A DNA stretch of 64,000 nucleotides from Phoronis australis (Eukaryota; Animalia; Phoronida). The position numbers and the translations under genes were made by a program. Position 1 is the stretch's first letter. Every line of letters starts with the position of its first letter. Of the stretch, positions 5,403 to 51,130 are shown piece after piece. The notes beneath the pieces are model-generated. The model saw only the letters and a list, made by a program, of their open reading frames with translations, had not been told where the DNA came from and searched no databases. The stretch covers positions 83,544-147,543 of the forward strand of contig NMRA01000390.1 of the NCBI GenBank assembly GCA_002633005.1, written 5' to 3'.

Positions 5403-5555
5403 TCATGACGTCTTGGTCTTCCCTGTAGTGATCCCATTTTTATGTCCATTCATCATGTCCTTAGAGTCATTTTTCTTTGCTGTTTGTTCTTCCATAGCCT
5501 TTTGCATCTCCGTATAATACGCCAAGGCATGCTTCACAGGGTCTAGGACATGTTC
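5403..5555 (-). CDS. PDE9: PDE9 last coding exon ([24 protein letters not shown]...KTS*)
   Basis: ttttcag acceptor, phase 0, TGA stop at 5403-5405; resembles the PDE9 C-terminal helix. Confidence 0.88.
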   Translation of the reverse strand, partial: EHVLDPVKHALAYYTEMQKAMEEQTAKKNDSKDMMNGHKNGITTGKTKTS

Positions 5556-11500: not shown

Positions 11501-14500
11501 CCGTCAGGGCAGAAGAGTGTACACTGACAATCATTATTTGAGTAATGTAAATGTAAATAAAGATTCCCCTAACACCTGGCCGTGGGATGAAAATCGAGTT
11601 GTTTCACAACAGTTTCTGCCAGCAAACACTAAATTAGCATGAGCTCACGCGGCCTCAGTGTCCTGTCAATTAGTTTTATTGCACCTAAAGCCGGTAACGG
11701 AGTGATTTATTCATTGCTGGCTTCTCAAATCATTTGCACTCACGAACACTCCAAAGGCATTACAAATTGCATCTAATGAGACAGGCTTTCTTTCAGTTTT
11801 ATATAAGTATTGGTTAGGGTAATAATTCATTTTGAAACAGAACACTCAGTAATAAATGCCGACATGTCAACTCGCAATCCCGACTTAGGACGAGCTAGAG
11901 CTCATCAGTCCCGACTTCGCAGGTGGATCATTAAGTTTTACAGGCTATCAATATCAATATTCAAACAGGAATACAGTGATGAAGCAATACTAGAGAGGCG
12001 CCGTGAACAAGCTCAGACAACGAAACGTATGGAGTTATTTGGTAAGCCGACATTCGTTAGTAGGCACTGTCGACGTCTGCTGGCCACAGACATGGAGAAG
12101 TTTCACGGCCTCATACTTGCTATTTACAGCGTACATTTCATTCTTCACTACCATGAGCCACTTCCTAAGCATTTCGGACTCTCGAAAAAGTAAAAAACGA
12201 TATACCCGCTTTCCGGGCAGCTGCTTAGTTCAGACAAGCGGGAACGATGCACTGCAGCATAGCGGCATTCACTCTGCATATGAACCACTGAGGTCGCTAG
12301 CGTCGTTTCTCACCTTCCTCACAGGTTAACGCGGCACCTCTTGGCAAGGTAAGGTCGACCGTATGCGAGGCGATGTGGATATAGACCAATTAAGACGGCA
12401 AAAAAAGACTAATTAAATCGGGTGGCATTCTCCTTTAATCCATCTACCCAGTTTACTGACTTTCGACTAATCACCATAATTAAAACATTTCTCTGGATGT
12501 TGAGTATCCCAGTTTCAGTGTTTTGGCTTCTAGACAAAAAGTTACACTTTGTTTTACTTCGATGCACATTGTGTTTTCTATGAAATAAGACAAAATATGG
12601 GGGGGGGTCATTGACTCAGTTTTTGAGCTATTTTAGCTCAGTGTCATAAAAGAATGTGCATGTTGGCCTTCTCAAAAACCCATTAATTTCAGGACGATGA
12701 GTACTCCCACCACATTTCATTTGGTGGTGATCATGGCATGTGGTTGGGATTGTGACATGAGTTCTGTTAGCTCTTAAAATCTATCACAATAAGTTTCTTC
12801 TTTAATAAATTCGAAACTGCAGTTTGAATTAAGCCATGTCTAATGTTTACATTTGGGGTTACCCATTGCTGAGTACGTCATTATGAAATGCGATGTTGCA
12901 AACTATTATAATTTAACACCAAAATAACAAAAACTCAACACAAAATAACCATTTTCGAAATTTTTGTAATTTGAAATAAAAAATCACATTAAGTAAGTCG
13001 ATGCCACCTCATAGGTTTTTGGCAAACTGTATTGAACTCCTTGATAGACTTTATGATTCACGACAAATACAATTTGGAAAACATGTCCATGAAACCATGC
13101 ACAGTGCATGAAGTGTGTGATGAAACCATGGAATAACCAAGCCCGCAAATAACAATGATCGTCTGGTTTTTCATAACGATGAGAGAATCATGTGTCAACA
13201 AGGTGGTATAACCCTTTATCAGGCAGTGCAGCAGTGTGTGATCATCACGGCAACACATGCACCTTACAGGCAGCAGCTAGGCGGGGATTAACTGCATGCT
13301 TGGGCCATCTGTGTGTAGTAATCAAGGGCCTGCTCAACGGGCTGGATTAAGTGAGCCTGGAAAATGGCAAACAGATAAGTGCTGACTGCTCAGCTAAGTT
13401 ATACACACATTATGGATTCAACTGTCCAGGGCGTCAACTGCGCAGGGAGTGAACTGCCCAAAGGGCCAACTCTCCAGAGCGTTAAATGTTTAGAGGGTTA
13501 ACTGTTCAGAAAGGCAACTGACCAAGGGATCAACTGTCTAAAGGGTCAAGAGGGTCAATTGTCCAAAGTTAACTGTCTAGCTGGTCAAATGTCCAAGGGT
13601 TGATTGTTCAGAGAGTCAACTGCCCAAGGAGTCAACTGTCCAGAGAATCAACTGCTAAAAGAGTCGACTATTCTCTCCAGCTGGTCAACAGTCCAAAAGG
13701 TCAACAGTTCAGAGTGTGCATTGTCTAGAGGGTCAACTGCTCAAAGGGCTGACAGTTCAGAGAATCAACTGTCCAGAGGGTCAATTGTCTAAAAGGTTGA
13801 CTGTTCAGAGCATCAACTAGAAAAAGGGTCCACTGTCAAGAGGGTCAACTGTCCAAATGGTCAACTGTCCAAACGATCAACTGTCCAGAGGGTTAACTCT
13901 TTAAAGGGTTATAACTGTCCAGAGAGGCAACTGTCTTGTCGGTTAAATGTCCGAAGGATCAACCCTTCAGAGTCTCAACTGCTCAAAGATTGAAGTGCCC
14001 AAAGGGCCAACTCTCCAAAGGGTTAACTGTCCAGATTGTTAATTGTTACCCAAAAGTTCACCTGGTCTCATTGTCAAACTATTCAAAGAGCCAAACCGTC
14101 CAGAGGGCCAATGGTTCTGAAGGTTCATTGGAAAGGACCTGACAGTTTCGTCTTACTGGCAAAATTTGAAAATAGATGAAACATTATTATCAGTATTAAA
14201 GCGTACTATGAGACAACCAAACTAAATGTGACAGTTGAATACCAGGATGAAAAAAGAATTATACAATTAATAAGAATTGATCCTGAAGGCAATATCAGCC
14301 TGAGGTTAGATTTAGACTGAGGGGTACATATGATCTTATAAGACTGAGGGATTGGTCTATTTTTAATTGTTATTTGACCACTGACTCATCTTTCCTCTGA
14401 CTTCCTTCATCTGTTGGATTGATATACTTTAACAAGGTGTGAATGCAAACACAAAAGTATAACATGGTTGACTTATGATTTGCTGGCCAGTCTTGGCCCT

Positions 14501-17500
14501 TAAATTCACAATATCTTACAGTGCAAAACATTCATCCAAAATCACTCAGCATCTCCTTAAGACACATTTGATTACTTGCAAGCGATCAGTGGGCAACGTG
14601 ATAGTCAGATTGTACAGATGACAAGTAGCGACATCTGATGTCCAGCCAGACTGAATGAAGTTCTTATGCATGGCTAGCTAGGCAACATCATACCATAACA
14701 GATTAACGTACTGTGCTTTAGTCAATAGTAGGAGAAATGTGTCAGAGGTCATATAATACACAATGGATGTAAGTTTCAGAAGATGGCAGGAAGTAACTGA
14801 GCAAGAATACAAATTAATATCAAGGCCAACTACAGAGCATTCAAACAGATGATTGAACATTACCACTTCTACATCAAGTTGAACATCAAGCAGGCATGTT
14901 TTGACAAGAACCTACTGACAGCAATATAGGCAGGTACACTGACAATGTGTGGTCCCTGTCCCCCAGGCTGCACAGTCTGCCTCATAGTGTGTGGTCCCTG
15001 ACCCCCAGGTTCCACGGGCTGACTCACACTGTGTGATCCCTGCCTCCCAGGCTGCACAGGATGACTCACATTGTGTGGTCCCTGCCTTCCAGGTTGCAGA
15101 GGCTTCCTCACAGTGTGTGGTCCCTGCCCCCAGGCTACACAAGATGACTCACACTGAGTGGTCTCTGCCCCCCAAGCTGCCTCACACTGTGTGGTCTCTG
15201 CTCCCAGGCTGCCTCACACCGTGTGGTCTCTGCTCCCCAGGCTGCTTCACACTTTGTGGTCTCTGGGCCCCCAGGCTGCACAGGCTGCCTCAACCACTGC
15301 TTTATCAGTAGGAGGCTCATTACTACAGTGAGTGAGCAGTGACTAGGATTCATTCATAGCAATGCAGGGTGTCTACTACACGAGACAAGCTCAGATACTG
15401 TCTGGTAGGTTTTAACAAACATCAAGTGCAAAATACAAAATTAGTTGTTTATGTATTGGGTATTTCCAAGGCTCGATTGTGTTTAAACCTATCCTCGCAG
15501 GGAAAACTTATCACAACCACTCTCATGCTAACAGAGGGCAAGTCAACCTGCAAACTTTAAAAAAATAAAAATTAAATATGTCTGGCTGGAATGTTCAGAA
15601 ACTGATTTGTAACTAAATGAAGTTAAGCAGTTCACCACACCATGAGGTGATTACAATAACATTAGGTCATGACTAACAGAGCCAGTTGAACAAATGGCAA
15701 ACATCTCTTTCTAAAAACATCAATCAAATCTTATTGAAGAATAGGCAAATATAGCAGAAAGTAGGTAGAGGACTATATCTAAAACCTATGGGACTATATA
15801 TACATGTATGTATATGCATATCCTTGATTGAAAGCACGACTGTACTTTTTCTTATACAGCTTAACAATATTACTCGTTCAAAGTCTCATACAATCTCATA
15901 TCTTCAGACCTTATGAGCCAAGACATCAAGAGTCATAACATACAAACAAGTTAAAACATATTTTGAGGCAACATGTCTCATCACCACGAAATAAGTTAAA
16001 TGAACAAAGAGGGAGCGAAATAAACAGTAAAATAACTGGTAACAGCAAGTACAGGGGCATACAAGCAGAGAGGTAACAGTAGGTAGAGGGGCATACAAGC
16101 AGAGACTGAGGTAACAGTAGGTAGAGGGGCATAAAAGCATAGAGGTAACACCAGGTAGAGGGGCATACAAGCAGAGACTGACGTAACAGTAGGTAGAGGG
16201 GCATACAAGCAGAGAAGTAACAGGAGGTAGAGGGGCGTACAAGCAGAGACTGAGGTAACAGCAGGCAGAGGGGCATACAAGCAGAGAGGTAACAGTAAGT
16301 AGAGGGGCACACAAGCAGAGACTGAGGTAACAGTAGGTAGAGGGGCATACAAGCAGACAGGTAACAGGAGGTAGAGGGGCATAGAACCAGAGAGGTAACA
16401 GCAGGTAGAGGGGCATACAAGCAGAGAGGTAACAGGGGGTAGAGGGGCATAGAACCAGAGAGGTAACAGCAGGTAGAGGGGCATACAAGCAGAGAGGTAA
16501 CAGGAGGTAGAGGGGCATACAAGCAGAAAGTGTAAATGTATCACATATTCATTTCACCTCCTGCCTGATGAAGAGACATGTTGTCTCAAAATATAGCAAC
16601 TATTTCAACTTAGTTGTTTGTAACTATGTAGTGTCTCTTGATGTTTTGCTTCTTAACTGCATGTCTGAAGATATGACATAGAATAGGGACTATGCGCTTG
16701 TAAGCTGTCTAACACAAAGTACAGTAATAGTATTGTCAGCCAAGTCTGTGTGAATGAAGAGCTGCTACCCAAGTATATGTATATGCAATCATAATAATTT
16801 ACATATATGGTATATGTGAATGACAGGTGTAAGACAGTGTATGTTAACTTTGTGTAATTTATATGTATATAATTCATACTTTGGCTTAAATTTGGGTAGA
16901 GTAATCTTCATTGTTTGATGTGTACAAACAGCATCCATTTGATGATCTCACAAATTAAAATAATTGTATTTTTGGGTATAAACTTTACTAAATTCTGAAA
17001 AGACTTGGACAATGTTTGGAAACTGCATACTCCACAATGAAAACCAGTTGACATGAACAGACCCACTATAGTACAATTGCACTAGTCTCAGATACGGCTC
17101 ATCACCAGCTCAGGTGGGAGCAGTGCCACCTACCTCCATGATGGGGAATAAGTCAGCCAGAGCCTGGAACAGTGGTAGTAGAACAAACTTGATGAAGCCC
17201 ACCTGTGATGATGGTTTGTTCACCTTCTCACGGTCCATGAACGGAGCCACTGGCAGACCTTCCAACTTCTCAACGTCACTCTAGCAAGGAACAGTTAAAG
17301 GCCTCAGACAAATTATACTCAAAAGCTCACACATTTAATCCCATTGACAGTAACCACGGAAGGTTATAGTTCCGCCAAGTTCTTTTAAATAATATTTGAA
17401 CTGTTTCAAATAGACAAAGCCAGCTTATAACCTACCAAGCCTTGACAGGAGTTGAAAGTTTCACCCTTGATTCAGGTACAATACACTCCATGTCTTCTCA

Positions 17501-20500
17501 TAAGGACCCAACATGAGTGCAAAAGAATCTCAAGGCAGCAACATTTTGACTGGAACTTATGTGTTGAGGTCACTAAATCAGAAATTTTAATCAAGTGTTA
17601 ACAGATTTGCTCAATGTGGGGCACGTTTCACTAAAATACTGAATAAAGCATTAGCCAAGTAAAGACGAGTCCATCACGGACTAAAAATAATTTACTTAAT
17701 TATCTCTGTCGGTATCCACAGTGTGGACGCTTAGCTAAATGCCAAGTTTTTTTGGCGACCTCGTAATGGCCAAAATCCCAGGTTGCCAAATGAAATCTGC
17801 GGTCACCAAACCAACTGAAAATCTCTGGCATTGAAATGAATTGCAAGGGTTCCTATCCAGCATCAAAATTTGTAGGTCAACCAGAAAATTAAACGTGGTG
17901 GAAATGCGCTGAATGGAACAATTCCGAATCAAAGGTAATAAATCTAGGAAAAATGTCAGTGGTTTAAAGTTTGGAAGTGAACACGAACTTTGAAACAAAT
18001 TTAGAGGAAATTTTTGTCTGACTTAAGATACTTGCAGTGGCCACTTCAAGGTAACTTGGAATTTTTTCCAGGTCACCAAACACAACCTCACCTGCAGGTC
18101 ACAAAACACAATCTGACCTGCAGGTCACCAAACACAATCTGACCTGCAGGTCACCAAATTGAGTGTTGAACCAGCAGTTACCTGTTTTCAGAGACTGCAT
18201 TTTTGCTCAAGTAAGATTTAATTGTTTTCAGAAATAGCTGTGTGGAGCGTAAGAATAAATTTTGGACTTTGCTCTTTAGTCAATTTTCATAAAATAGACA
18301 CCAGTAATTGCCGATTTAGTGCTGACAAGAACATACATATAAAAGGCATCACAGAGCCTACCTGGCGGAAAAACTCCTGCAGTAGACAATCAATCCAAGG
18401 CTCAGCTACTTCCATTGGACGACACTCATTGGAGACGTCTGCCACTTTGATTAATATCATCGTCAACTGAGTACAACAGAAAAATGAGCACAACATCAAA
18501 TACAGTACAACACCAAATACAGAAAGAAAGAGAAAACCATGGTGTCTGATCACATGACACTAGAGAACCCTACTGCCACCTCCCTACTGCCACCTACTGT
18601 TGAAGTACACTGTACCGCCACAGTAGCCAAAATGACAATGGACCATATTACCAGTTATAAAAAGCCACTCTTTACCAGTGGATAACATGAGTTATAAACT
18701 CATTTGTTAAGGTGACACCACTTTGTGAAAGGTAGCTAGTTTACTGACTGGCATGCTTAGAGTAATGCAGAAAATGTACAAAACTCATGTATCTACTACT
18801 TTTTGCGAATTTTTCTTACTTTAAGGATTGTCGAGGCCTGAAATAGCAGCGTGTCAGTCAGTATAATGGATTACTCTGAACCATTCAAAAGTATTGTGGG
18901 AGTTGAGAATAGATGACCACGTGTAAATTAGGCAGACGGACATGTGAAACGTAGGCAGACAACCACGTGACATGTAGACAGACGACTACGTGACATGTAG
19001 GTAGACAACCACGTGACATGTAAGCTACCTGATTGAAGAACTCTTGTAGCAAGCAGTCAATCCAGGGCTCTGCAACCTCCATTGGCCGAGCCTCATTCGA
19101 TATGTCCGAAACTTTCATTAACACCATCAGCAACTATATCATTATGGATAAACATACAGTAAAATTTCCGCAAACTGAAAAACTTTAGATTTTTTTTCAG
19201 AAATTATAAGTCCTATCTCTAATTTTGGAACATAAAGTATTCTTGGAGAGAGAAATGTTAATGAACAGTGTCAGACTTTGCTTCAAGGATTCAGTCTAAA
19301 ATAAAACTTTTTGAAAAAAAATTATTTTCCCAAAAGTGTGAATGTCCCAAACTGAAGACATTCATCAGGCATTTTTCTATAAATGAATACAATCAATCTG
19401 ACTACAAAGTTCGCAAAAGTAGTTTAAAAGCATAGTTAAGTGAAGTCAAAGCTACAAAATTGGAATAGGTTCGACAAAGGGAATTGTATAAAACTGAGAC
19501 TGCTGACTTGCTTCAATGAAACCATATAAAATCAAAGAAACCAAGACGACGTGTGTTTTGTGGCTTTAAGATTATTTCATCACCTAAAATTTGTTTCCAT
19601 TAAAACGATGAAAACCATCATTTTCCTTGTTTTGACAAGTGCCTACACTGTCAGCATCATTAAGCCTTCCATTATGCCACTGCATCACGAATTCAAAATC
19701 CCAAAAACCAGAAGAAAGAAGAAAAGAAAAAAGCGACTTCAGTTGTAAGTTTCTGAACTCTACGGACATGAGTGTGATGTATGAACGAACCAAGAGCTAG
19801 TGTTTCATGTCCACCAACACGTGAGATTTTTTGCACTAATGTGCCAAATCCGCACTTTTCCGATGTCCCACAAGAAAGTGAAAAGAGCCACAGCAAGGTC
19901 GCATAATAAGTTGGGACAACCACCACCAACGCAACACCACAAATGCAACACCACAAATGCAACACCACCAACGCAACACCACAAACGCAACACCACAAAT
20001 GCAACACCACAAATGCAACACCTCACAATTCCTTATTGTACCATTAACCATGGGAAAATGAGCAACAATATTTGATGACTTATCATACTAAACGCAAAAA
20101 TAGAGAAAGATAACTAGCGCTGTTATTGGTTGTCCCAATTTTACGGAGTACGTTTCGACCGCTAAGTGCTCGCAACTCGATATCAGCTAATTAACATATC
20201 ATCAGATAGTGTTTGCGGGTGTTTTAATTTGATATATGATTGACTGGTGGGGTTGTTTTTGGTGTTTTTGATGTAAAATTGGTGATTTCAAGCTCTTTAA
20301 AGACACTCTTTCCTTTATGTTCACCAACTTGAACACTAGAGTTTCAACAACTGAGAGGCGTCCCTAACACAGGAATATTTCATTTCTATGTATTTTCTTT
20401 TACTACTGACAATTCATATAAGGCCAATGCCGTTAAACTGCGGTGGCCATTTTGTTCATGCACACACCTCCATAAATTCAAAAATTATTTCGAGACTCCT

Positions 20501-23500
20501 GCATTTAATTTAAATGCAGAAAAGAATTGGAAAGAGCATAACAAAGATTTTCACCAAAGATGGACGAGCAAATGGTAGAAAGTTTCCAAATAAATAACGT
20601 TCTAAAAAAGAGTTCTCTCTCTCTGTATGGGTAGGACTGCTCTTTCTACCAACAGCTAGGGGATCTTTGCTGGAAGGGTCTCTCTCAAATGAGGGTCTCT
20701 GCCAGACAGGGTGTTCCTCTCTGCAAGTAGGGTCCTACATTTACTGTGGAGATTCTCAACAGTTATAGTGAGCATCTTCTCAGTAGGGTCCCTACCAGCA
20801 AGGGGTTCGGACAGTACACCACTACAGTCTGTGGTAGGTTAACTGTCTCTCAATAGAGGCTCTCCCTTCACAGTGAAGGCCTCTCTGTAGAAGGGGGTCT
20901 CTCCTCTCCACAGCGAGGATCTTGCTCTACAAGGTAGGGCCTCTCTCTACAGGGTAGGGTCTCTCTCTCTACACACAGAGTGCCTCTCTCTGAAAGGAGC
21001 CGCTCTTTGTCTCACTACAGATAGGTGACACTTACCTGTCCCCTGTGGTCTTTGTTACCAAAGTCAAAGTGTGGTACCATACTGCGAAAACTGCCTAGAA
21101 TCTCTGAGTGTTTAGCCATGTCTGTAGAAAGAATACACCTAAAAAGGATACCATACACAAATCATTCTTTGATATATTGTGTTTAAGATGGCCATGTTGC
21201 CAAACAAAGAATTCTGTTCTATATTAACAATTGTAATAGCAATAAACATAGAAAGGATCATGATAACTGACAGATATTAAAATTACAAAAGGCAATTTCT
21301 GATATAACATACATTAGGCGATATTAAACGATCTAGTTACAAATACACAGACAACACACACATAAACACAAAACACAGAAAGGTTATATCAATGAGCCTG
21401 TTATCAAGTAATTAAAATTTAAGTTTGCCATAAGATATCACAAAATTAATGAACGTGGATACTATATCTATTAGAAAAATATTCAGATGTAAGTTAAGTT
21501 GTAGCGAACCATGAAGTAAAAATGAAGGACATCGGCAACTAGGTAAGGTATTTCTTAGTAAATGAGGAGCAGATACAATTTAAACCTACCTAGTGCATGG
21601 CAAAATGTGATATCAAGTATTAGATAAACACCATACAATGATGCATAAACCGGGTGAAATCATACATGAGCATGAAATGTATTACCTTATCATTCCCTCA
21701 CGAATCTTTTTAAATATGTCTGTGGGAAGATTGCGAAATATGTTGCAGTTTGGCTTCTTTAGAATCTCAAATGCCACAGCACAATGGTGGTTTTCAAGGG
21801 GTGAAATATCGTTGTACCTGAGAGCGAGTTCTGTTCGAGCATTTATCTACAAAGCAATTCATTTCATTACAACACTGCAAAGGTTTAGTACCAAACAAAC
21901 TGTAGTTAATACATAAAATTTAATTACACTAAAACGCATACAAAAAGATTGACTCTTTAAACAATTTAGGACAACTGATAATACTAAAAAGGGCTTCTTG
22001 TAATATCTTTCAACCAGACTGGTGTACTGCTCCAGTTAACACAATATTTGTAATGGTCAAAGTGACAGAATGAGTGCAATTTAAGGCCATACCTGATATG
22101 CATTGTTGTACCCAGGATGGTCCAAGTCATGACTTATGGCTGACGTGAGTAGTATCAGAATGTCAAGGTCATCCAGATGACCTCGTAGGTCTAGTAACCA
22201 CGTTAACCCGTACATCTGTAGCAGGCATTAGGAGTTATGAACAGGCTGTGGCAAAGATAGCTTATTGCTCAACATTTTAAACGGGGTTTATTACCGTTGC
22301 ATGGCTATTAAATTTCTCATAATATTCAAACTGTAGGCTAATGCAACACCTAGGCAATTGGTTACCCAAGGCAGTAGCAAAACTGCAAGACAAAACCTAG
22401 CAGCAAAAATAGCTGGATTTAGCAGAAACTCTCTAACAACCACATCCTAATGGAGCTGTTTATTGTGAATTGCTCTTTGAACAAGTTACTAAGAGCAGTT
22501 ATTATGACTTACCATTTGTGAGACCATGAAGCAGTGTTTAAAGTTGTGGAACGGCACTTGATTGTAGTGAGAGTAGACTTCATACAACCAGTTGTGAAGG
22601 ACTTCCAGCTGAAACAACAAAAGACCTATGACAATACGTCAAAGGTGCTTGGCAGAGGTTACGGTAAAATTCCCAAATTTAGGACAGTCTCCCGCATTTC
22701 GGGCACCTAAATCCAACCCCAAATTAAATTTTTTTGATTCTGAAATTTGGGCCATGGTAGAATTTGGCATTCACCATATTTCTCAAATTTCAGACATGTT
22801 GATTTAGTGGCATTGGTCGTCATTCTCACATTTTGGACAGTGCGCTTTTTCGCATGAGGGAAGTTCATCAAGTAATGGTGATTATTTACACATCGTTTAA
22901 AACTGCCGCCAGCATAATGTATTGCCTAATGTTATCGATGTGGATAGTTTGTGTATATCTCGCACGTTTTCTTGGCAGTCGTAATCACCGACTCGAAATA
23001 TTTGCCATGCTTGATTGTGGTTTCACTATAGGTCTACAAATAAAATGTATGTTCTCAGACGTTCACATAATCGCCAGTGTCACGCTTTGTATTTGGATTA
23101 AAAGCCAATTAGTAAGCATCGGTGATGAGACCGTTGTGTTACCAAGTCAGATCCCAGGTTTATGGTTTTTCTGCGAACCTACGGTCCACTTACCATCCTC
23201 CCAGAGCCCAGACCTTCGCTATGCCATGCACTATCGGTGAAACGATATTCAGTGTCAAGTTAAAACAGATTTTATGAAAAGCAATCGTCCATGCCCTAGT
23301 TTGTCATGCAGTATACACTAAAAATGTTCATGTTGTAAATATATCTTTATGTCTCCCTTATTTGACATTCTATTTACTAGCCTATTTTGTATTCTACACG
23401 AAATGTTTGGAGTCTCTCGCAACAAGATTAAGAATTTTGAAGCCATCTAAAATAGAGTGTGAACCTAAGAATCTTTAGTCCAAGTTGCTCCATTTCCACC

Positions 23501-26500: not shown

Positions 26501-29500
26501 TATGCATCTTCCACACAGCTATCATCACATGTCAAACATAAACTGTTACCATATTCTACTTTCTCACACCACCTTTCCTTTCTTAAAACCTACAGTTGGA
26601 ACAACATAACTCAGTTGAGGTCATGAAAAATGTCTAATTTTGGTCAACTTCAGAACATCTTATCTCAGAGATGGCTGATCGGTTTCACATGAAACTACCA
26701 GATACCATGCTTTGTACAATGTTCTCCAAAACGCTGCTGGGAATATTGTTAAACGGAGACGATATTTATAAAACCGTAACAGCATTTTTGAGATTTATTG
26801 TGAACATTTATATCATACGGAATTTGGTAATGCTATTTAACTTGTTGCTTTGCTGTGAATGAACCTTTTTTGCTAAATTTTCAAAAAAAGCAAGGTTATG
26901 TGACCTAATTAGTGGCAGATTGGCATCACGTCAACAATCAAATTCAGAATTTCTACTTTCAGAATATTTAATTATGCTTTTGCCAAGTTAAATTCTATAG
27001 TTTTGTAGATATTTTGTTAAATATAGAGACTTGAAGATAAGGTCCTACATAGTAACTTTAATGCTTGAATCATGGCAAACTTAAATACATGGTTCGAGTC
27101 TTTACCTTTTCCCAAAGGATTAATCCAGTAATATACGTAACATTGGTATGATATTTTTGCTTTTAAATACAGTTTTGTACCTAGGGCAATATGAGAATAT
27201 CATCCGATTCCTGAATTGGAAATGGGTCAGAATGTTGCATTGTGGGTATAGAGGTATAATTCAAGTGAACAGGAGAAGCGGTCAAAGGAAGATTGTATGT
27301 GTTGTATGCCTGGATCATTTAATATTACAGTAAGCAAGATAAACGAGTTTAGCTTACAATTTTCTGGGGATCAAGAACTTTGTAAAAATGGCTCAAAAAC
27401 ATTGGTGTGGCTGAAAACAAAGGGCGGTTTAGAGGAATTCGTTCTGACCTTGGAGAGTGTTTTAAAATATTTCTCCTGGAAGAAGTAACGACAAGCACTC
27501 CACGATCGATGGAGTATTGTTAGTGCTAGAACAAAACTCAGCTGAGCTGAGCATCACGTTCATTCTGCATCTCGGAACAGGAAGCAAAACTGGACAGCAG
27601 AGCAGCTGCAGTCAGTGGTCAACTAGCACAGCTATAGTGTTTACTAGATGGCAATGATAGCAGCCTGTAGGATATTATTTAGAAAATTATGAAATTATTG
27701 ACAGTATGAGGTCACGAATAAGTGAGCAGAGGAGGAGTTCTCACAGGTGAAGAATGAGCTTTTTACATGTAAACAAGTAGAGCTGTATCATACAACCAAG
27801 AATGAGCTTTTTACATGTAAACAAGCAGAGCTGTATCATACAACCGAGAATGAGCTTAGTTTTTACATGCAAACAAGCAGAGCTGTAACATAAAACCAAG
27901 AATGAACTTTTTACATGAAAACAAGTAGAACTGTATCATACAACCAAAGGTGAAGAATGAGCTTTTTACAACAAGTAGAGCTGTAACATACAACCAAGAA
28001 TGAGCTTTTTACACGAAAACAAGCAGAACTGTATCATACAACCAAAGGTGAAGAATGAGCTTTTTACATGTGAACACAAGTAGAGCTGTATCATACAACC
28101 AAAAATTGATCAAGAAATGAGGAAGTGGCAAAGACAATATAACCTGCTTAAACTAGAGTTAAAAAAAGAACAAAAATTAATTACAATTGGCTTAGACAGT
28201 TGTCATTTTTATTGTACTACGAGAGAAAGAGCATTCATTCCCTCTTTTTTTGAAAAGTTTATGTTTTGAAATTCTTTGTTTTTAGTCATGGCTTTACACT
28301 CATTTTTTATTAAGTTCAACCTCCGGGTGATGAATTGACACTTTGGAATAATTGAACTTATAATGAGTTTGAAATTGTTTTGTATGCAGGGAAAAATGCA
28401 AATTTGGGTAATAAATGCTTGTATTACAGTTGTGACATCAGTTCTGTGGGTAAGCAAGCAATGAACCCATATGTTCACACACACATCTGACAAAAAGTGT
28501 ACGGTGGCTAGGTGTACACCTATTGCAATGATGTCATTAGGATGTCTGAGAGTAATAAGTTTCACAATTGGCAGTTGTTCTGATACTGTTAACACATTGT
28601 ACACGCGTCATGGTCCTCTGATCTGATTAGAACAACATTTTGAATTCATGTCAGTCATGGTCTTGTGTATCGTTGCGCGAGAAGGCCGATAGGTGTAGGT
28701 TGTGTACGCTTAATGTCATTGTGCAGGAGCCGCAGTCCAATGAAACATGGTTTTTCTTCCAGTTGTATTGAGGTCGGGATGCCGTAATCGCAAAAAACAT
28801 AACATGATAGAATCACAGGGGTTACAGGGATTATAAACTTGACACGCTTTTATCAGCGATTTCAATAGTTCATTACCCAGTTGCTATGTGGATGTCAGAA
28901 CACTGTAATCGCAATACAAAAAGAATTTTATGCCAATAGCAGTGGCTTTTTGTGCAGACGTTGGGACACCGGCCGGCGTAATTGCAACAAAGGAGTTTTT
29001 ATTTCAATTGAAATAACAATATCTCAACGTATTTTAATTGAACTTGCGTTGCTTAGACGTTGATATTTTGTCAGACTCGGCGAGGTTGATTACATTGGTA
29101 TTGTCCCTAAGTCGATACTATGTTGGACCCACACTGACAGGCAATAGGCCATTCTTGCTACCTCTAGACAAGTGCCTAATTGCATGTTAATATATGCATC
29201 AATGCGACTACCACTATATAGTGCCAAACCCTATGATAATACATGTGTCAAAGAATTTACCTCTATATTAAACTTGGCAACAAAGCCAAGATCTATGTAC
29301 ATCTGTCGCAGTAAGACCAACATCTCTGGATCGTCCCACTGCCAGTTGTCAAATGTTGGCTTCTTCAGGTAATTCCGCACTTCTTCCGTTACTTGAACGC
29401 CACTGGAAAACAAAAAAGGTCATCATAATTATCAACAGGAGGCGCTACAAACAGCGGAGAGACTGGACAAACACCTAGCAAACAATCAAATGACTACAAA

Positions 29501-32500: not shown

Positions 32501-35500
32501 AACAAGTAAACTAAGGATTGAACTTTCCAATACATACCACATTCTTGTAAACTTGTCATAAACCTTCTTACTGGGGTCCTTGCTCTGCATTGAATCCCTC
32601 TTGTTCCAAAATGGCTGCAGAGAGCCAGTGGTCATGTCCTTAAACAGACCCAACCAACTGAGGTGCTCAACACTCTGCAATCATCACCAATACATTAGTT
32701 TGAATGAAGCAACAATTGATAACTACCAAACATACATCATCAACCAAAACATTCAAAAACAAACCCACAAATTCACACACAGAAGTGATATTTTTGCAAT
32801 TAAATGCTTATTTTTGTCAAGACCCTATAGAATGCAAAGCAAATCAGTTTGCTTGCTTTGTGGTTCTGTAGAGAGAGGTCACGGAGTCACAAATGATGTC
32901 ATGCCAAAGGATAATAAAACATTTTATGATAGCAGAGCCCATCATGAGTAACCAACAGTGTTACACAATGTGCGTTTACATTTCATGTTCCGAAAGTATT
33001 CTTGGATTTTTGGCTAGGTTTGCAGATGTTCTATGGAAAAAACATAAAAAACATTTGGAACAAGCAGTGATCAGAGAATTACGCAAAATCAATGAGCCAA
33101 CAAATAATGAAACATTCGTCTCACACAAACATCACAGGTCTTAAGTTCCATGCAACACTGGCTGTCCTTAAAATATTTTCACCATGGCCTAGTCTCAGTC
33201 CTAAGATGGGTAAGTAACTTTGCAAAATGTTTTAGTTTCCCACAAAATACCACCCGTACTCAAATGCACTGGGACAACCCCAGTTTTTGTTAAAATACTT
33301 CTTTAATCTTCACGGTTTTCATCATCATGGATCTTTTAGGATCAACCAACCTCCAATTTTTCCCTGAACAGTTCCATCTTTTGTTTAATATCAAATACTG
33401 CCACTGGCATTTCTCCATTGTCCACAACAATCTTCTTCTCGAGAGTCTGTATCCTAACAAAAACACATAAAACACAATTCACAGCTCCGTCCAGAACACT
33501 TAAGGAAGCAGAGACAATATATCAATTAGGCCAAATTTATTTAAAAATATGAGACATTTTTCTAGGGTCCTACATTGAGATACAACTACAGGTGAAAGGA
33601 AAATTGTTACTAGGGGACCTCACTGTAGTTGCACCCATGTCACTCGTGATCTTGTTATCCATTGATTTTCATTAGGATCCTTTGAGTAGTTCGGCAGATA
33701 GAGATACGGTGAATGACAAAAACTGACTTGAAAATAATAGACATGGCAACTAGGTGGCACAGAATATGTTAAATACATCTGAAAATCGAAAGGCATTGTC
33801 ATCTCCGTTAAAAAAACTATTTGGAAAAATTAGTGAAAAGCAATCATGGAATTCTGAAGATACAGATCAGTGCAAAAGTAAAAAACTAAAATTGTCCTCA
33901 GGGCGCAGAATACATTGAATCCATCCAAAAACTAAGAAGGTATCGTCGCACCCGAACAGAAAGTTATTTGTCACACTCCAAGAAAATCCATCAGCTAACT
34001 TCCAGGATTGAGGATAACTAACTTAAAGGTAAAAAAACTATAATTAGCACTAAGGGGCACAGCGTTAGCCAAATAGGTATGAAAGGCATTGCATCCATCG
34101 GCAGCATTATAGAAACACATTTGCCACATTTTATAAAGCTCCAGCAAGGTGTTAAAGAGATAACACAGGGGACGCAGGGCTAGGCACCCAGAAAGAGATG
34201 ACAGAAATATGCACCCTCGTAAATGTACATGAGGGCAAATAAAAAGCAAGGAAAACGATTGACTTTCATGTGGTGTGAAGGCTATCATGAGAGGTTTATC
34301 TTTAAATAACAAAAAGATTTAGGTCAATCTACAAAGAGAATGTGATAAGCATTGCCTTAATTACTAAAACGTACATCACTAAGAGTCACATGACCTATCC
34401 ATCTCCACATTAGTGGACATGAGTATGATGGACACATTCTTATCAACCACAACCATGCCGTGAATAATACGCTTACAAGAAAGTCACGCATTTCTAAAGA
34501 TATGCATGACTCTTCACCGCTCTTACTTCTGAGCGACTTTTACTGCGATCAAAGAGAGCGCGACGCCAGAGTCGGACTCAGTTGCGATGACCGCATTGTC
34601 CGGTGCGAGCAAGACCCAATTAAGTGTAATTACCCGACCATAACCTGTAGTAAACATCTCTGCCTGTGCATTAACCAACAGTTTTCATTAAAAACAAATA
34701 CCATGACAGCTGTATTCAGATGGAAAAAGCAACCAAGTTTGGTTTTCAATTTTTAAAAATCGATGAACTATTAAGCTAAAAACTACAAACATTGGGTCCG
34801 ATTGAAGACAAACGACTGTGTGTACTGATATACTCGGTAATTATCTCTGATCAAGAGTTAACAATATCACATGGATTATTCTTTTAGTATACAACTAAGC
34901 TACATTGAAACATCTATAAACAACACACAATGACTAAATTATAGAAGTCAATAACTTTTAAAACATCACTTATGGTCCAGTGTATGCCGAACTACTTTAC
35001 TCCAGGAGTAGTAAAACTAACCAAAAACTGATATTCACAAAAATGCACCAATTTCGATAGATAGCTTGTAGTTGTAATGGAACACCTGTGAAGACAACTA
35101 AGATGGCTAGCTTTGTAGTCAACGAGAGAATGCAAGCAGTGGATGAGGTTGGTCGGTGGGCAAGAGGTGTGATTTCATTTTCTATGACTGAGGAAAAGCT
35201 AGAATAGTTAATGTAGTTATTGCAATCAAAATTTCCAGAGGTTCCAAATCTTCACTTTGGCTATCACCATATTATTTTGCACTTTTGTATAAATTTTATG
35301 ATTTGAGTTCTAATAAAGATTGAACTTGAACTAATTGCACGTGTAGTTTTGTTTGTTGTGACACGTTGGGTTCACAATTAACTGACTTCTGAGTTGTTTT
35401 GATACTTCGTTTAAACACAAAATAAAAAGATAGCAACCATAACCTGTAAGAAAAAAGTAGACAGGAGTATTAAAATAAAGTAATGAAAACAGGTATGAAA

Positions 35501-38500
35501 CATATTTAAAACCAACATTCATTTGGGAAATGGCCCTTTGTCAAGATCAACGCAAATTAACATTTTAGTCTTTTTGTAAAATTTAAAATGTACCAAATTA
35601 AAACTGCAGGCTTTTTTTGCAAATGCCAGAGAAAAACAATTTGGGTGTAATAACGACCACCATTGTTAAGAAAGTAGTGCTAGCTATTACCTTTCCACTC
35701 ATTAGCTCAGATCTGGATCAATACAATGGGCGTGCTGAATAGGCATCACCAATTGAAAGTTGTCTGGGGCTTAGGGAATCAGAGCAGTGACCAGCGTAAG
35801 TGAGAAATCCTGCACATGACTTAGAAAGAAAGCCTTGTAATCTGCTTTAATTCACATATTGCATTTGACCAGGTGATGGTTTGCAGCTTGTCATTGTTCA
35901 CCCTTTCTATATCAACGGCAACGTTTAGCTTTTGAAAATCTGCTAAGAAAAACATTGTTTCCACCAGGAATATGTGAACTGTACATGAGCATTTAATATG
36001 CTGTAGTTTGCACATTTTGAAAGTATATCATTCTGCTTTTACCACCACGATTCAGTTTTAACCACCGAGAGTATGAGTTGTTAAACTGAAGCCAAGATCA
36101 GTGTCAGTCTACTGTAGTACAAACGGCACTTACCTGCGATGTTCTTTTTGTCAAAGTTTGTCACAATCTCTTATTAGCAAAAGTCTTTTATTAACTAGCA
36201 ATTGCCAATTGAGTACATGGACGCATGATGGGAATACTGTTAATATTGTAAATGCATACAAATATCTAGGATTAATGTTTACTACTACGAAAGGTTCGTG
36301 GTCTTGCGCACAGAAAACTCTATCATTACAGGCTACTAATGTAGTGAATTTAATGAGAAAAAATGTCAATGGTTTTAATGCACTCCCTGTTAAAGTTAGT
36401 TTAAAATTATTCGATTGTAAAATATTGCCGATACTTCATTATGGCTGTGAGATCTGGGGTTTTAGTGATTACGAATGTATTGAAATAGTCCACACAAAAT
36501 TTTGTAAAGAAATTTTAAATTTGCTTAGCACGGCAATTTCATCGACTGCTAGAGGTGAGATGGGTCGTTACTCCTTGATTGCTTACCGACTTCCTAGAAT
36601 TATGAAATATTGGTTCAAGTAAAACTATTAAGAACCGATGAGTAAAAAATTACATGTCATTGCTATGAATGGCAGTACAATGTGACAGAAAATGTTAATA
36701 AACCGTGCTGGGTTAATGATGTTAAGAAATTGCTATTTCAGTTTGGTTTTGGAGAAGCATGGTATAATCAGGGCGTAGGTTCCGAGACAAGCTTCATATC
36801 ACTTTTTAAACAAAGATGCAAAGATATTGATCAGCAAAAATGGCAAGATATTTTGAACAATTCGATTAAGCCGGAAGCGTACAGAACTTTTAAGTTAAAA
36901 ATGTTTTGAAAACTATTTAGATGTAATTGACAATGTAATGTTAGATCTGATATGGTAAGATTAAGATGTTCAGTGCATGCACTAATGACTGAAAAGGGTA
37001 GACACTTGAAACTTAGCAGAACAGAAAGGTTATGCCCTCTCTGTGTTAGGACATATGTCGGGTCAGAATATCATTTTGTTATCGAATGCCCATTCTACGA
37101 TGACCTAAGGAAACGACATTTGCCTGCATGGAGCTACAACAACCCCAATGTTACAAAATTCAACAGACTCATGAGTATGGATGAAAAAGATCTTATATGG
37201 TCAACATAAAAAATATGTTCATTTCGCATTCAAGCGAAGAAGAATTCGGTTTACTTCTAGTGTTTGACACTTACCTTTATTGTATTTGATGATTTGATTG
37301 TAACAAGGGCCGGAGGCCTAGTTATTGAATAAATATATAATATACAGTTGCACATAATCCGAATCGGTCATCAGTGATTGGCAACAACTTGGGTTTCTGA
37401 CCCCAGAGACTACCGTAATGGGCACTGAACTAATGACTCGTAACAGACTACTACCTGACAGTTCCGAGTCGGCTCGTTGTCGGCCACTCAAACAAAAATT
37501 CAACAAAGGTCATTTTCTGCACCACTAAAAGCACTAATATCAGCCAACAACGTACCTGTGGATACAACAACGTACCTGTGGATACAACAACGTACCTGTG
37601 GATACAACAACGTACCTGTGGATACAACAACGTACCTGTGGATACAACAACGTACCTGTGGATACAACAACGTANNNNNNNNNNNNNNNNNNNNNNNNCA
37701 ACAACATACCTGTGGATACAACAACGTACCTGTGGATACAACAACGTACCTGTGGATACAACAACGTACCTGTGGATACAACAACGTACCTGTGGATACA
37801 ACAACGTACCTGTGGATACAACAACGTACCTGTGGATACAACAACTTATGTAGCACTAACCTTTTGTCAATATCAGAGACGTCAAAACCAAGTTGGGCGG
37901 CTAAGAGACCACCTGAAACATAGCAGTTAAGTGGTCAGATAAAGCGTGTACTTCTCCACTATGCCATGTTGAGAATTAAGTAATAAGAGCATTGTAAACA
38001 CTTGTTGGCTCTTCCTGGCTGTCACAAAGCTGCTGCTGCAACACATGAATGAAGCAAGGTTAACCACAACATGTAGTGACAATGTGACCGCCCAATAGTT
38101 TCATTCTTACCAGTCCTGTAAAGACGGTCTTATAGACTACATTTACAAGAAGCATTCACCACATGACTAACAGACTGTACTGCCAGATGAACAAAATTTG
38201 AATGTTTCAAGCAAATATGATTTTCTGTTGATGTGACCTTGAAAATAGAGTCAAGGCCACCAAATTCGACAGGCGCCAGGAAAAGTATCACACACACCTT
38301 ACTGCAAACTGTGAACACAATTTGAAGCTTCCTTCTTTAGTGATCATGTCAACACTTTCGAAGTACAAAATGAACTTCTCACTTCAGTATGACCACTTGC
38401 AATCGGCGAGTAGGGTAAAATCTCAGCTCGCCATTTTGAATTTGAGGTTGTCAAATTTTTAGTACCCCGGACATCCGATATGTGTCGCTTGCAATGCGGC

Positions 38501-47500: not shown

Positions 47501-47697
47501 TGAATTCTAAACATGCACCATTGTAATCACTACCATCTAATACTTACCACTACAATAGGCAGCAATAACTTCTAACTTGTAGCATGTATCAGGAGTGTTC
47601 TCTGCTAATTTGGGCGATATGTTCACTATGTTTCCTTTGGCATTATACAGTTTCAGCAGATCATGGGGACCAGCTTCAGCTGCTGCACGGAATATGT
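5403..47697 (-). CDS. PDE9: PDE9-family cGMP phosphodiesterase, spliced gene (5' incomplete in this window)
   Basis: 12 exon positions with GT-AG boundaries and compatible phases give about 490 codons. The product has the class I PDE motifs [29 protein letters not shown], KVxDxSNE.RP and [17 protein letters not shown], which closely follow human PDE9A as I recall it. Confidence 0.93.
8560..9330. mobile_element. Penelope-like element relic: GIY-YIG fragment (-) with an adjacent inverted partial copy (+)
   Basis: The minus-strand ORF at 8560-8796 reads [12 protein letters not shown]...[22 protein letters not shown]. The same sequence recurs inverted at about 9110-9310, and both resemble the endonuclease at 48738-49076. 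Confidence 0.8.
10824..12434. mobile_element. non-autonomous Kolobok-like DNA transposon
   Basis: TIRs AGGAGCATGCCACCC / AGGAGAATGCCACCC (14/15), both flanked by TTAA, with 5'-RR termini. Confidence 0.8.
13415..14120. repeat. degenerate ~19-20 bp tandem array
   Basis: many diverged copies of a gggtcaactgtccaga motif. Confidence 0.85.
14945..15292. repeat. GC-rich minisatellite (~35-45 bp units)
   Basis: repeats of cacactgtgtggtccctgcccccaggctgc. Confidence 0.85.
16037..16527. repeat. purine-rich minisatellite (~33-37 bp units)
   Basis: repeats of gaggtaacagcaggtagaggggcatacaagcaga; explains the three overlapping repetitive ORFs. Confidence 0.95.
16562..16598 (+). ncRNA. degenerate minimal hammerhead ribozyme of the Penelope-associated type
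   Basis: TGC-CTGATGA-A-GAGAC atgtt GTCTC-AAAA-TATA-GCA; the GAAA box reads AAAA, so it is probably inactive. Confidence 0.55.
17134..17280 (-). CDS. PDE9: PDE9 exon ([49 protein letters not shown])
   Basis: tgctag/gtaggt boundaries, 147 bp; invariant substrate Gln and clamp Phe. Confidence 0.96.
18069..18158. repeat. ~26-bp tandem repeat x3 within a degenerate TIR-element relic (~17720-18175)
   Basis: caggtcaccaaacacaatctgacctg units. Confidence 0.7.
18362..18466 (-). CDS. PDE9: PDE9 duplicated exon B ([35 protein letters not shown])
   Basis: tttttctgttgtactcag/gtaggc boundaries, 105 bp, phase 0-0, intact frame. Confidence 0.9.
19029..19133 (-). CDS. PDE9: PDE9 duplicated exon A ([35 protein letters not shown])
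   Basis: atatag/gtagct boundaries, 105 bp, phase 0-0, intact frame. Confidence 0.88.
19917..20022. repeat. 14-bp minisatellite
   Basis: caacaccacaaatg repeats. Confidence 0.9.
21036..21138 (-). CDS. PDE9: PDE9 exon ([14 protein letters not shown]...NKDHRGQ)
   Basis: tttttag/gtaagt boundaries, 103 bp, phase 2-0; TDM motif. Confidence 0.95.
21686..21846 (-). CDS. PDE9: PDE9 exon ([26 protein letters not shown]...GMIR)
   Basis: ttgtag/gtaata boundaries, 161 bp, phase 0-2. Confidence 0.96.
22093..22215 (-). CDS. PDE9: PDE9 exon (MYGL...[17 protein letters not shown])
   Basis: ctacag/gtatgg boundaries, 123 bp; class I PDE signature HDxxHxGxxN. Confidence 0.96.
22513..22608 (-). CDS. PDE9: PDE9 exon ([32 protein letters not shown])
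   Basis: tttcag/gtaagt boundaries, 96 bp, phase 0-0; catalytic HNxxH motif. Confidence 0.95.
23877..24036. repeat. ~29-32 bp minisatellite x5
   Basis: agtagagttatgtgatgtatgggtctacc(tg) repeats. Confidence 0.9.
24382..26853. repeat. 1.24-kb near-identical tandem duplication (24382-25615 / 25617-26853) joined by a single N
   Basis: the copies differ only by a few SNPs and small indels; N at 25616. Confidence 0.95.
27747..28102. repeat. ~48-bp tandem repeat, about 7 copies
   Basis: gaatgagctttttacatgtaaacaagtagagctgtatcatacaaccaa units. Confidence 0.9.
29261..29402 (-). CDS. PDE9: PDE9 exon, start of catalytic domain ([18 protein letters not shown]...KFNIE)
   Basis: ttttccag acceptor, gtaaat donor, 142 bp, phase 2-0; matches the PDE9 'LRKPTFDVWLW' segment. 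Confidence 0.93.
29512..30719. mobile_element. non-autonomous Kolobok-like element
   Basis: TIRs GGATATCTCAAACCTTA / GGTTATCTCAAACCTTA (16/17), flanks TTAA/TTAC; its right half (30207-30719) has a diverged copy at 56174-56862. Confidence 0.65.
31285..31736. mobile_element. MITE, PIF/Harbinger-like
   Basis: imperfect TIRs AGGCCCTTTCATATTGAC / AGGGCCTTTCATACTAAC with a 3-bp flanking duplication (TAT). Confidence 0.65.
32538..32674 (-). CDS. PDE9: PDE9 exon ([14 protein letters not shown]...KVYDKFTRM)
   Basis: ttgcag acceptor, gtatgt donor, 137 bp, phase 0-2. Confidence 0.88.
33351..33453 (-). CDS. PDE9: PDE9 exon, coiled-coil region ([35 protein letters not shown])
   Basis: tttttgttag acceptor, gttggt donor, 103 bp, phase 2-0. 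Confidence 0.85.
36200..37340 (+). mobile_element. 5'-truncated, degenerate LINE 3' end (ORF2 C-terminus; RTEX/CR1-group-like)
   Basis: [14 protein letters not shown], and the C-terminal zinc knuckle CPLC...[11 protein letters not shown] across broken ORFs; ends in aataaa plus an AT-rich tail. Confidence 0.85.
37545..37845. repeat. perfect 20-bp minisatellite spanning an assembly gap
   Basis: caacaacgtacctgtggata units; Ns at 37675-37698. Confidence 0.95.
37861..37912 (-). CDS. PDE9: PDE9 small exon ([18 protein letters not shown])
   Basis: tttcag acceptor, gttagt donor, 52 bp, phase 1-2; exactly bridges the flanking exons. Confidence 0.8.
40778..40872. repeat. 19-bp minisatellite x5
   Basis: tggatgcagtagcctccac units. 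Confidence 0.95.
41279..43473. mobile_element. non-autonomous TIR DNA transposon with 5-bp TSD (hAT-like termini)
   Basis: Termini are CAGGGATCGACA...TGTCGAGCCCTG with subterminal caggtcgc/gcgacctg repeats, flanked by GTTCA on both sides. A diverged partial copy lies at about 52314-52835. Confidence 0.8.
47548..47697 (-). CDS. PDE9: PDE9 exon, N-terminal domain ([50 protein letters not shown])
   Basis: ttgcag acceptor, gtaagt donor, 150 bp, phase 1-1, open frame resembling the PDE9 N-terminal region. Confidence 0.85.
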
Positions 47698-50243: not shown

Positions 50244-50249
50244 CACTTG

Positions 50250-51130
50250 ATGATCATGGAGGAGCTGGAGAGTTACCTGCATGGGATGTTTCTTTTTGGA
50301 GATACGAACAAAGAACAGGGATGACTATGAACCCGATTCGCTTACAAGTATCTACCAATCGATAGATAGGCACCTGAAAAATATTGGTCGACAGAATTCA
50401 ATCCTGACGGATCACGCCTTCCAAGGATCAAGGGCATCTCTAAAGGCTAACAGATGGAACTGAAACAAGCAGGGAAAGGAAACAGACCTAAGAAATCTGA
50501 ATTACTGACACTCGAAGAAGTAATCACATTAAGAGAAAAAGATATTATAGGACTTAAAGATCCATAAGCGCTACCGAAGTTCATCTGGCTGAACAATACA
50601 AAGATATTAGGATTTCCTGGATGCCAGGAAAACAGACAACTTCAATGAGGCAATATATGTCTCAAGTCGTCGTCACAAAGGGAATATTCAAAGTTCAGAG
50701 ACAGATTAACTAGGACAAGAGTTGATGGCTCAACAGGCCGTCCCTTTAAACCCAAGCTATTCCCTACGCCAAATGAGCCAGAATCATATTCAGTAGAAGC
50801 TTATAAATTATACAGACAAAATCGACTGGCACAAATGCTCACCGACTCCTCACCGTCTTACATTAAACTCAACATGAATTCAGAAAAAAAGAAGGGCTAT
50901 TGTTCGCGGCGCAACCCTGAGGAGTGAACACTAAGCAAAATGCTATGAGCAACAGAGCTAATCCAAGGGAAAAAAACAATCATAGCCTAAGAAAATCAAC
51001 CTGCAATAGACTCTTGAAATCTGGCTTTCACCCAAACAGTTATACAGCTCACCGGACACAGAATTCTTCAATCGTAAACATCTACGTATAACCAAGCCGA
51101 TATGGAAGAGCAGAAAGCAATGAGTAACGT
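50250..51130 (+). mobile_element. degenerate Crypton-type tyrosine recombinase (DUF3504, ZMYM/KCTD1-like)
   Basis: FFLEIR...YEPDSLTSIYQSIDRHL, LKQAGKGNRP, NHSLR (about 50978) and QLTGH motifs, with stops and frameshifts. Confidence 0.8.

What the first reader, a model, noticed from the sequence alone, without database searches (positions are those of the whole stretch)
18362..19133. Tandem duplicated, probably mutually exclusive exons in the PDE9 catalytic core
Seen: two 105-bp phase 0-0 exons, 562 bp apart, each with an AG acceptor and GT donor, encode the same 35-aa segment. 28 of 35 residues are identical, yet 13 of those 28 codons differ synonymously and the flanking intron sequence is unrelated. 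This points to an old duplication with purifying selection on both copies, not an assembly artefact or dead copy. Known: in class I PDEs this segment carries a metal-coordinating Asp and pocket residues (human PDE9A2 D402, I403, N405, E406, Y424). Inference: including both copies would duplicate helices of the fold, so they are likely mutually exclusive. The resulting isoenzymes would differ next to the active site (VSDISNEA vs VADVSNEC; N vs R near the end). The PDE isoform diversity I know of is mostly N-terminal, and I am not aware of catalytic-core exon swapping in PDE9.
Basis: partly seen in the sequence, partly recalled or inferred. Interest (0 to 1): 0.85.

Follow-up and report, generated by a model that had tools for sequence, protein, structure and literature searches.

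The report
Swappable active-site exons in invertebrate phosphodiesterase
A gene for an enzyme that likely breaks down the messenger cGMP carries two old copies of the exon for part of its active site; gene models of snails, clams and worms show the same pair, and this animal mostly splices in the second copy and likely swaps in the first in some cells to make a slightly different enzyme.

Summary
Observation confirmed: two 105-bp phase-0 exons, A (19133-19029) and B (18466-18362), share 28/35 residues with synonymous sites saturated. RNA reads splice B (20 and 27 junction reads); one read fits spliced A, its partner exon unknown. The pair, in the same order and with class-specific residues, appears in gene models of 16 of 23 named lophotrochozoan species, so it is ancient. 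The gene is not the orthologue of human PDE9A but of a PDE9-like sister paralogue. Strict mutual exclusion is not shown: 20 of 65 models join both exons, 6 have A alone, 36 B alone, and no steric, frame or U12 barrier exists. Named pocket residues are the same in A and B except I403/V. The true PDE9A gene of lophotrochozoans has the neighbouring exon duplicated instead. The scan found this PDE9 pair before on other DNA (e1-7275413). Not found in ten literature searches. Verdict: new member of a known kind (homologous alternative exons).

The parts
19029..19133 (-). Exon A, upstream copy, 35 aa (human PDE9A2 393-427); minor form; weak acceptor (11 of 20 pyrimidines, TAG)
   Evidence: one RNA read covering exactly 19029-19135 and running on unlike
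18362..18466 (-). Exon B, downstream copy, 35 aa; major form; stronger acceptor (15 of 20 pyrimidines, 77-nt AG-free zone)
   Evidence: junctions 21036->18466 (11/9/0 reads in X1/X2/X3) and 18362->17280 (13/6/8)
18467..19028 (-). 562-nt GT-AG intron between the copies; too long for steric exclusion; no convincing docking/selector pairing
21036..21138 (-). Upstream constitutive exon (TDM motif), single copy in this gene
17134..17280 (-). Downstream constitutive exon with the invariant substrate-binding Gln (human Q453); Pfam PDEase_I
21686..21846 (-). Catalytic-domain exon
22093..22215 (-). Catalytic-domain exon with HDLDH metal motif
22513..22608 (-). Catalytic-domain exon with HNFKH metal motif
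29261..29402 (-). [quoted passage not shown]
32538..32674 (-). N-terminal region exon
33351..33453 (-). N-terminal region exon
37861..37912 (-). N-terminal region exon (weak tblastn hit, keeps the frame)
47548..47697 (-). Most 5' exon found, typical of the PDE9-like N-terminus (donor at 47551 or 47548, both in frame); the first coding exon was not found in the window
5403..5555 (-). Main last coding exon
   Evidence: loose read ends at 17133 match its start
13288..13356 (-). Candidate second, homologous last exon (22 codons and a stop); use not shown

Best explanation
This is a lophotrochozoan PDE9-like phosphodiesterase gene with two tandem copies of the exon for the metal-binding Asp and part of the substrate pocket; reads show copy B spliced in alone, and copy A is likely a regulated, minor replacement for B (leaky mutual exclusion) that would give a second isoenzyme. 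Steps. Shown: two intact copies under purifying selection; B is the default in three RNA runs; the same A-then-B pair is in models from annelids, gastropods, bivalves and a nemertean. Inferred: one duplication early in Lophotrochozoa; A is skipped by default because its acceptor is weak, and is chosen in some tissue or stage by splicing factors that also suppress B; exclusion is imperfect, so some A+B transcripts arise. Predicted: the isoforms keep the same catalytic residues and differ by second-shell changes (human numbering 398, 401, 403, 407, 426) that would tune affinity, turnover or stability rather than switch chemistry.
For: Intact, frame-keeping copies with pS 0.82 and pN 0.125. B-only junctions 20 and 27 reads. 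One read covers exactly exon A plus the 2-nt AG shared with the end of the upstream exon. Pair in 16 of 23 named species; 6 full-length A-only models in 5 genera, 36 B-only. Class-specific residues: position 6 Met in 12 of 13 A and 0 of 13 B; position 9 Ala in 13 of 13 B, Ser in 11 of 13 A; positions 15 and 34 invariant in A. The upstream/downstream labelling is the best of 64 over 7 lineages. A is as conserved as B or more in both halves (0.85/0.80 against 0.80/0.76), which fits use of the whole exon. All 5 transcript-like Logan proteins hold one copy, B-type. Nine further short proteins from Logan, ENA, JGI or NCBI contigs hold an A-type exon followed by a Val codon, as read-through into a GT donor would give.
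Against: No A->17280 junction was seen; the single A read fits A->B equally. 20 of 65 models join both copies, more than the 6 A-only ones. No enforcing mechanism was found: 562-nt intron, both copies 0 mod 3, GT-AG donors without the U12 consensus, no convincing complementary elements. No transcript-like contig with A alone was retrieved (0 of 5). Gene models are automatic and I could not see the reads behind them. 7 of 23 species show only a B-type exon. 2 of 26 copies (Aplysia B, Physella B) are on average closer to A copies. The pocket residues named in the papers read are identical in A and B apart from I403/V, and that Val is seen in 1 of 13 B copies.
Confidence: 0.68

Rival explanations
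1. B is constitutive and A is a cassette in front of it: the alternative product is A+B, a protein with a 35-residue tandem insert that either folds as a chimera (first half of A, second half of B, the rest looped out) or has reduced activity.
For: 20 of 65 models join both. The frame is kept, so no decay is triggered. The AlphaFold model of the Mya A+B protein matches PDE9A at TM 0.97, rmsd 0.9 A, with 407-437 below pLDDT 50. A's class-specific residues 6, 9, 15 lie in its first half.
Against: 6 full-length A-only models in Owenia, Mercenaria, Mya, Haliotis (2) and Pomacea; Pomacea has A-only and B-only but no joined model among 6. The second half of A is conserved (0.86 over positions 20-35). 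The looped stretch in the model copies the gap of my alignment (405-439), so the model shows only that such a fold is possible. Automatic annotation is known to concatenate homologous exons (recalled).
Confidence: 0.22
2. Exon A is a relic in this species: it was useful in ancestors and is now spliced only as noise.
For: 1 spliced-looking read against 27 for B at the 3' junction (about 4%, 95% interval 0.1-18%); weak acceptor; 3 related models end in the intron after A.
Against: The window's A has no stop or frameshift, keeps both splice sites and is 29.2/35 identical on average to A copies of other species although its synonymous sites are saturated against B. Only three runs of one study, tissue unknown, about a fifth of each read.
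Confidence: 0.08
3. Assembly artefact or a recent neutral duplicate.
For: The window does hold a 1238-bp tandem duplicate at 99% identity (24382-26853) and N gaps.
Against: The copies are only 73% identical, flanks are unrelated, RNA reads at 99+% identity lie on A and its flanks, and the pair is shared across phyla.
Confidence: 0.01

Closest known systems
Homologous mutually exclusive exons from tandem exon duplication, including those at enzyme sites (PKM1/PKM2, fly CRMP zinc ligand, fly CG42249 catalytic residues; PMC7954323, passages and abstract seen)
   Same: Same length and phase, same fold segment, variable residues near a functional site, fold kept.
   Different: That survey lists 9 events touching catalytic sites and mentions no phosphodiesterase in its text or in 6 text supplements. 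Here the catalytic residues themselves do not change, and joined models are common.
Human PDE9A (PDB 3qi3, 6lzz and others)
   Same: Best structural and sequence match; metal ligands, Asn405, Glu406 and Gln453 are conserved.
   Different: A paralogue, not the orthologue; Phe for Tyr424 and Ser for Ala452; one copy of the exon in all 120 listed PDE9A-type proteins.
PDE9-like paralogue of fishes, sharks, lungfish, echinoderms, arthropods and sea anemones (e.g. medaka si:dkey-219c10.4, as named)
   Same: Same clade (100/99) and same N-terminal type; its single exon has the Ser9/Ala15/Asn34 state of exon A in vertebrates.
   Different: No tandem copy in any non-lophotrochozoan model held; no enzymology of this paralogue was found in the searches.
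Scan finding e1-7275413 (annelid PDE9 exon pair, another genome)
   Same: Same 105-nt pair, also reported in molluscs and ribbon worms.
   Different: Only a few lines were visible. It states one-or-the-other use; here A use rests on one read and co-inclusion stays open.

Membership tests
Homologous mutually exclusive exons | Neighbouring exons from one ancestral exon, same length and phase, valid splice sites | tested here: met
Homologous mutually exclusive exons | Each exon is spliced in | tested here: inconclusive
   B: 20 and 27 junction reads. A: one read with both ends at the exon limits; A-only models in 5 other genera.
Homologous mutually exclusive exons | The two are not included together | tested here: inconclusive
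   No A->B junction listed in the window's runs, but listing needs 3 reads; 20 of 65 related models join both.
Homologous mutually exclusive exons | An enforcing mechanism (steric, U2/U12, decay by frameshift, RNA pairing) | tested here: not met
   562-nt intron, 0 mod 3, ordinary donors, only short inverted repeats. Regulation by splicing factors cannot be tested here; this feature is usual, not obligatory.
Class I cyclic nucleotide phosphodiesterase (PF00233) | HNxxH and HDxxH metal motifs, Asp in the exon, invariant Gln | tested here: met
PDE9A proper (orthologues of human PDE9A) | Groups with vertebrate PDE9A in a catalytic-domain tree | tested here: not met
   Window lies in a separate clade, 100/99; forced grouping with PDE9A has p-AU 0.016 (group named after the first tree was seen); the same species hold a second, PDE9A-type gene.
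PDE9A proper (orthologues of human PDE9A) | Tyr424 in the pocket (PMC13529921, passages) | tested here: not met
   Phe in both exons
PDE9-like paralogue | Groups with fish, echinoderm, arthropod and Exaiptasia PDE9-like proteins, duplicated exon left out of the tree | tested here: met
   lophotrochozoan subclade 99/93 and 98/95
PDE9 family | High-affinity, cGMP-specific hydrolysis | not testable with these tools
   Glu406 and Gln453 are kept, but specificity is inferred from database names and likeness only.

The most novel reading that the evidence does not exclude
Lophotrochozoans tune cyclic-nucleotide breakdown by swapping parts of the catalytic core: each of their two ancient PDE9 paralogues has independently duplicated a different core exon (the metal-Asp exon in PDE9-like, the neighbouring TDM exon in PDE9A), and the alternative exons, and perhaps the A+B chimera, give isoenzymes with measurably different affinity or cGMP/cAMP preference in particular cells.
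Probability: 0.25. Interest if true: 0.72.

Novelty: new member of a known kind. Interest (0 to 1): 0.52.

Why it matters
In the review passages read (PMC13095499) phosphodiesterase splice variants differ by N-terminal domains or by truncation; an exon pair that replaces a metal ligand and a pocket wall, kept across three phyla, would be a different way to diversify these enzymes. It gives a ready natural experiment: two or three proteins that differ in 7 second-shell residues can be assayed side by side, in a paralogue for which no enzymology was found. It also shows that many public mollusc and annelid PDE9-like protein models with a doubled segment are either annotation errors or an unrecognised isoform. 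The splicing mechanism itself is of a well-known kind.

Tried and rejected
No genome is held for the window, so copy number elsewhere in the genome was not checked. Run search: no RNA holder listed; four runs came by species label; the contig run X4 covers none of the exons. RNA-pairing search between the introns gave only short or repeat-derived inverted repeats; no cross-species intron DNA was available. Steric, frameshift-decay and U12 mechanisms rejected. The idea that exon B replaces a lost PDE9A gene was rejected: lophotrochozoans have PDE9A. Scan of 150 representatives at 50% identity found no tandem copy of the segment (a profile hit was listed for most, not all, rows). The first coding exon was not found. 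The phylum of the window was not resolved. dS could not be computed because pS exceeds 0.75. The AlphaFold model was not taken as proof of the A+B fold because the loop follows my alignment gap. Literature searches listed no paper on this exon pair; subscription journals and most supplements are outside the library. Look-ups of earlier findings by sequence and by place were blank.

Full report
Observation. A (19133-19029) and B (18466-18362) are 105 nt, phase 0-0, bounded by AG and GT and 562 nt apart. They share 28 of 35 residues, 13 of those codons differ synonymously, and nucleotide identity is 77/105. Synonymous divergence is saturated (pS 0.82) while pN is 0.125, and the flanks do not align. 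The segment maps to human PDE9A2 393-427. With ten other exons found by tblastn either copy gives an open reading of 489 codons, both together 524, neither 454. The first coding exon was not found in the window.

Expression. Three stranded raw-read runs with the same species label, one study, were laid on 17000-21300; about 18-19% of each was read. Junction 21036->18466 had 11, 9 and 0 listed reads and 18362->17280 had 13, 6 and 8. No junction of A reached the listing threshold of 3 reads. A narrow lay on 18900-19259 found 6 reads: four in X1 that are contiguous with intron, one in X2 that runs through A's acceptor into the intron, and one in X3 whose depth covers exactly 19029-19135 and which runs on unlike the genome. 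The two extra bases are the AG that also ends the upstream exon, so this read fits splicing on both sides; it cannot tell whether A joined B or the next exon. One read against 27 is about 4% (95% interval 0.1-18%). B is the default; A is rare in these samples.

Conservation. A search with exon A returned lophotrochozoan proteins with doubled scores that hold the segment twice, or three times in Paralvinella. Cluster members and a second search gave 65 models with the segment from 23 named species and 5 unnamed transcript-like contigs: 36 B only, 20 both, 6 A only, 3 A-type and cut short (left out: P0128, no segment, and P0008, partial). Sixteen of the 23 species show both exons; seven show only a B-type exon, which does not prove that A is absent from their genomes. 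The order is always A then B. Position 6 is Met in 12 of 13 A copies and in no B copy; position 9 is Ser in 11 of 13 A and Ala in 13 of 13 B; positions 15 and 34 are invariant in A and variable in B. 24 of 26 copies are closer on average to same-position copies of other species. Over seven lineages the true labelling is the best of 64. This supports one duplication before annelids, molluscs and nemerteans split (over 500 million years by my recall). No tandem copy was seen in the 12 echinoderm, hemichordate, cnidarian and crustacean models checked, in the fish proteins, or in 150 representatives. These are automatic gene models; I saw neither their DNA nor their reads.

Which gene. In catalytic-domain trees with the duplicated segment removed, the window falls in a lophotrochozoan group (99/93) within a clade (100/99) of fish, shark, lungfish, echinoderm, arthropod and Exaiptasia proteins, apart from the clade of vertebrate-type PDE9A and Actinia. 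Forcing lophotrochozoan rows with PDE9A has p-AU 0.016 (the group was named after the first tree). Owenia, Dreissena, Haliotis, Littorina and Lingula hold a separate PDE9A-type gene. So this is a PDE9-like paralogue older than the cnidarian-bilaterian split; no mammal was among the listed hits. Its substrate preference is inferred only.

What changes. In human numbering A and B differ at 394 (L/T), 396 (V/I), 398 (M/I), 401 (S/A), 403 (I/V), 407 (A/C) and 426 (N/R). Asp402 (metal), Asn405, Glu406 (holds Gln453; PMC3069055, passages) and the hydrophobic-pocket positions 417, 420, 421 (PMC13529921, passages) are the same in both, and both have Phe for Tyr424. The conserved class differences flank Asp402 and Glu406. 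A tuning effect is plausible and untested; the E406A mutant itself lowered cGMP affinity and activity only 2-fold, so small effects are the likelier outcome.

How exclusion might work. The intron is too long for steric exclusion, both exons keep the frame, the donors are ordinary, and no convincing complementary elements were found. A has a weak acceptor (11 of 20 pyrimidines) and B a strong one with a 77-nt AG-free zone, which fits B by default and A by regulation. Without a hard barrier, leak is expected, and joined models are common. An AlphaFold model of the Mya A+B protein keeps the PDE9 fold (TM 0.97, rmsd 0.9 A) with 407-437 at low confidence, but that stretch is the gap in my alignment, so it shows only that co-inclusion need not break the fold. 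Against a pure cassette: six A-only models in five genera and conservation of both halves of A. I put leaky mutual exclusion at 0.68, cassette A+B at 0.22, relic at 0.08, artefact at 0.01.

A parallel. In the PDE9A-type gene of lophotrochozoans this exon is single in all 120 listed proteins, but the exon before it is doubled in Tegillarca, Magallana and Capitella models, and each version occurs alone in oyster-like proteins and in Lineus isoforms. The two paralogues thus seem to have duplicated adjacent core exons independently. This rests on protein models only.

Known and new. Homologous alternative exons near enzyme sites are a known kind: PMC7954323 (abstract, outline, passages, 6 text supplements searched) lists nine events at catalytic sites and no phosphodiesterase; its image supplements and web database were not seen. 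PMC13095499 (passages of the first 300,000 characters) has no 'mutually exclusive'. PMC7430754 (passages) reports inserts but no exon swap in schistosome PDE9s. PMC10248080 and PMC12630818 (passages) only list Pde9 genes. Ten searches listed no description of this pair. The scan itself noted the same pair in an annelid genome (e1-7275413) and a similar arrangement in GFAT (e1-8074426); I had reached my reading before seeing these and they are not independent support. Verdict: real, ancient, new member of a known kind; interest 0.52.

Noticed in passing
P0401 (Tegillarca), P0402 (Magallana), P0428 (Capitella); single-copy forms P0406, P0438-P0440, P0444, P0455, P0437, P0457: In the true PDE9A gene of lophotrochozoans the exon before this one (TDM motif) is doubled in 3 of 118 new proteins, and the two versions occur singly in oyster-like proteins and in Lineus isoforms: a second, independent catalytic-core exon pair. 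No DNA was seen.
   Followed up: partly
window 13288-13356 (-) and 5403-5555 (-): Two homologous last exons; reads from exon 17134 go mainly to 5555 (consensus agreement 0.82-0.88); use of 13356 not shown, and no such pair was seen among the related isoforms.
   Followed up: partly
P0003 (Paralvinella): Three tandem copies of the segment; copies 2 and 3 carry Tyr at the place of human Y424.
   Followed up: no
P0475 (Branchiostoma lanceolatum PDE9A-type model): A short doubled stretch at the start of the last helix, possibly another duplicated exon.
   Followed up: no
P0140, P0211, P0216: Three models read exon A-type isoforms that stop in an intron after the following exon (searches list them as truncated or short-tailed), hinting that A-containing transcripts are often incompletely processed.
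   Followed up: no
window 24382-26853: 1238-bp tandem duplicate at 99% identity inside an intron, with an N near the joint: recent duplication or assembly artefact.
   Followed up: no
window 60500-63800 (-), 48700-50250 (-), 36077-37209 (+): Decayed retrotransposon reading frames (by eye: Pao/BEL-like protease, reverse transcriptase and integrase pieces; non-LTR reverse transcriptase pieces); names recalled, not tested.
   Followed up: no
window 20600-21031, run X3: Intronic read depth 1.7-4.3 just after exon 21036 and no listed 21036->18466 junction in this run, the one that holds the exon A read: slower splicing of this intron or sampling noise.
   Followed up: no
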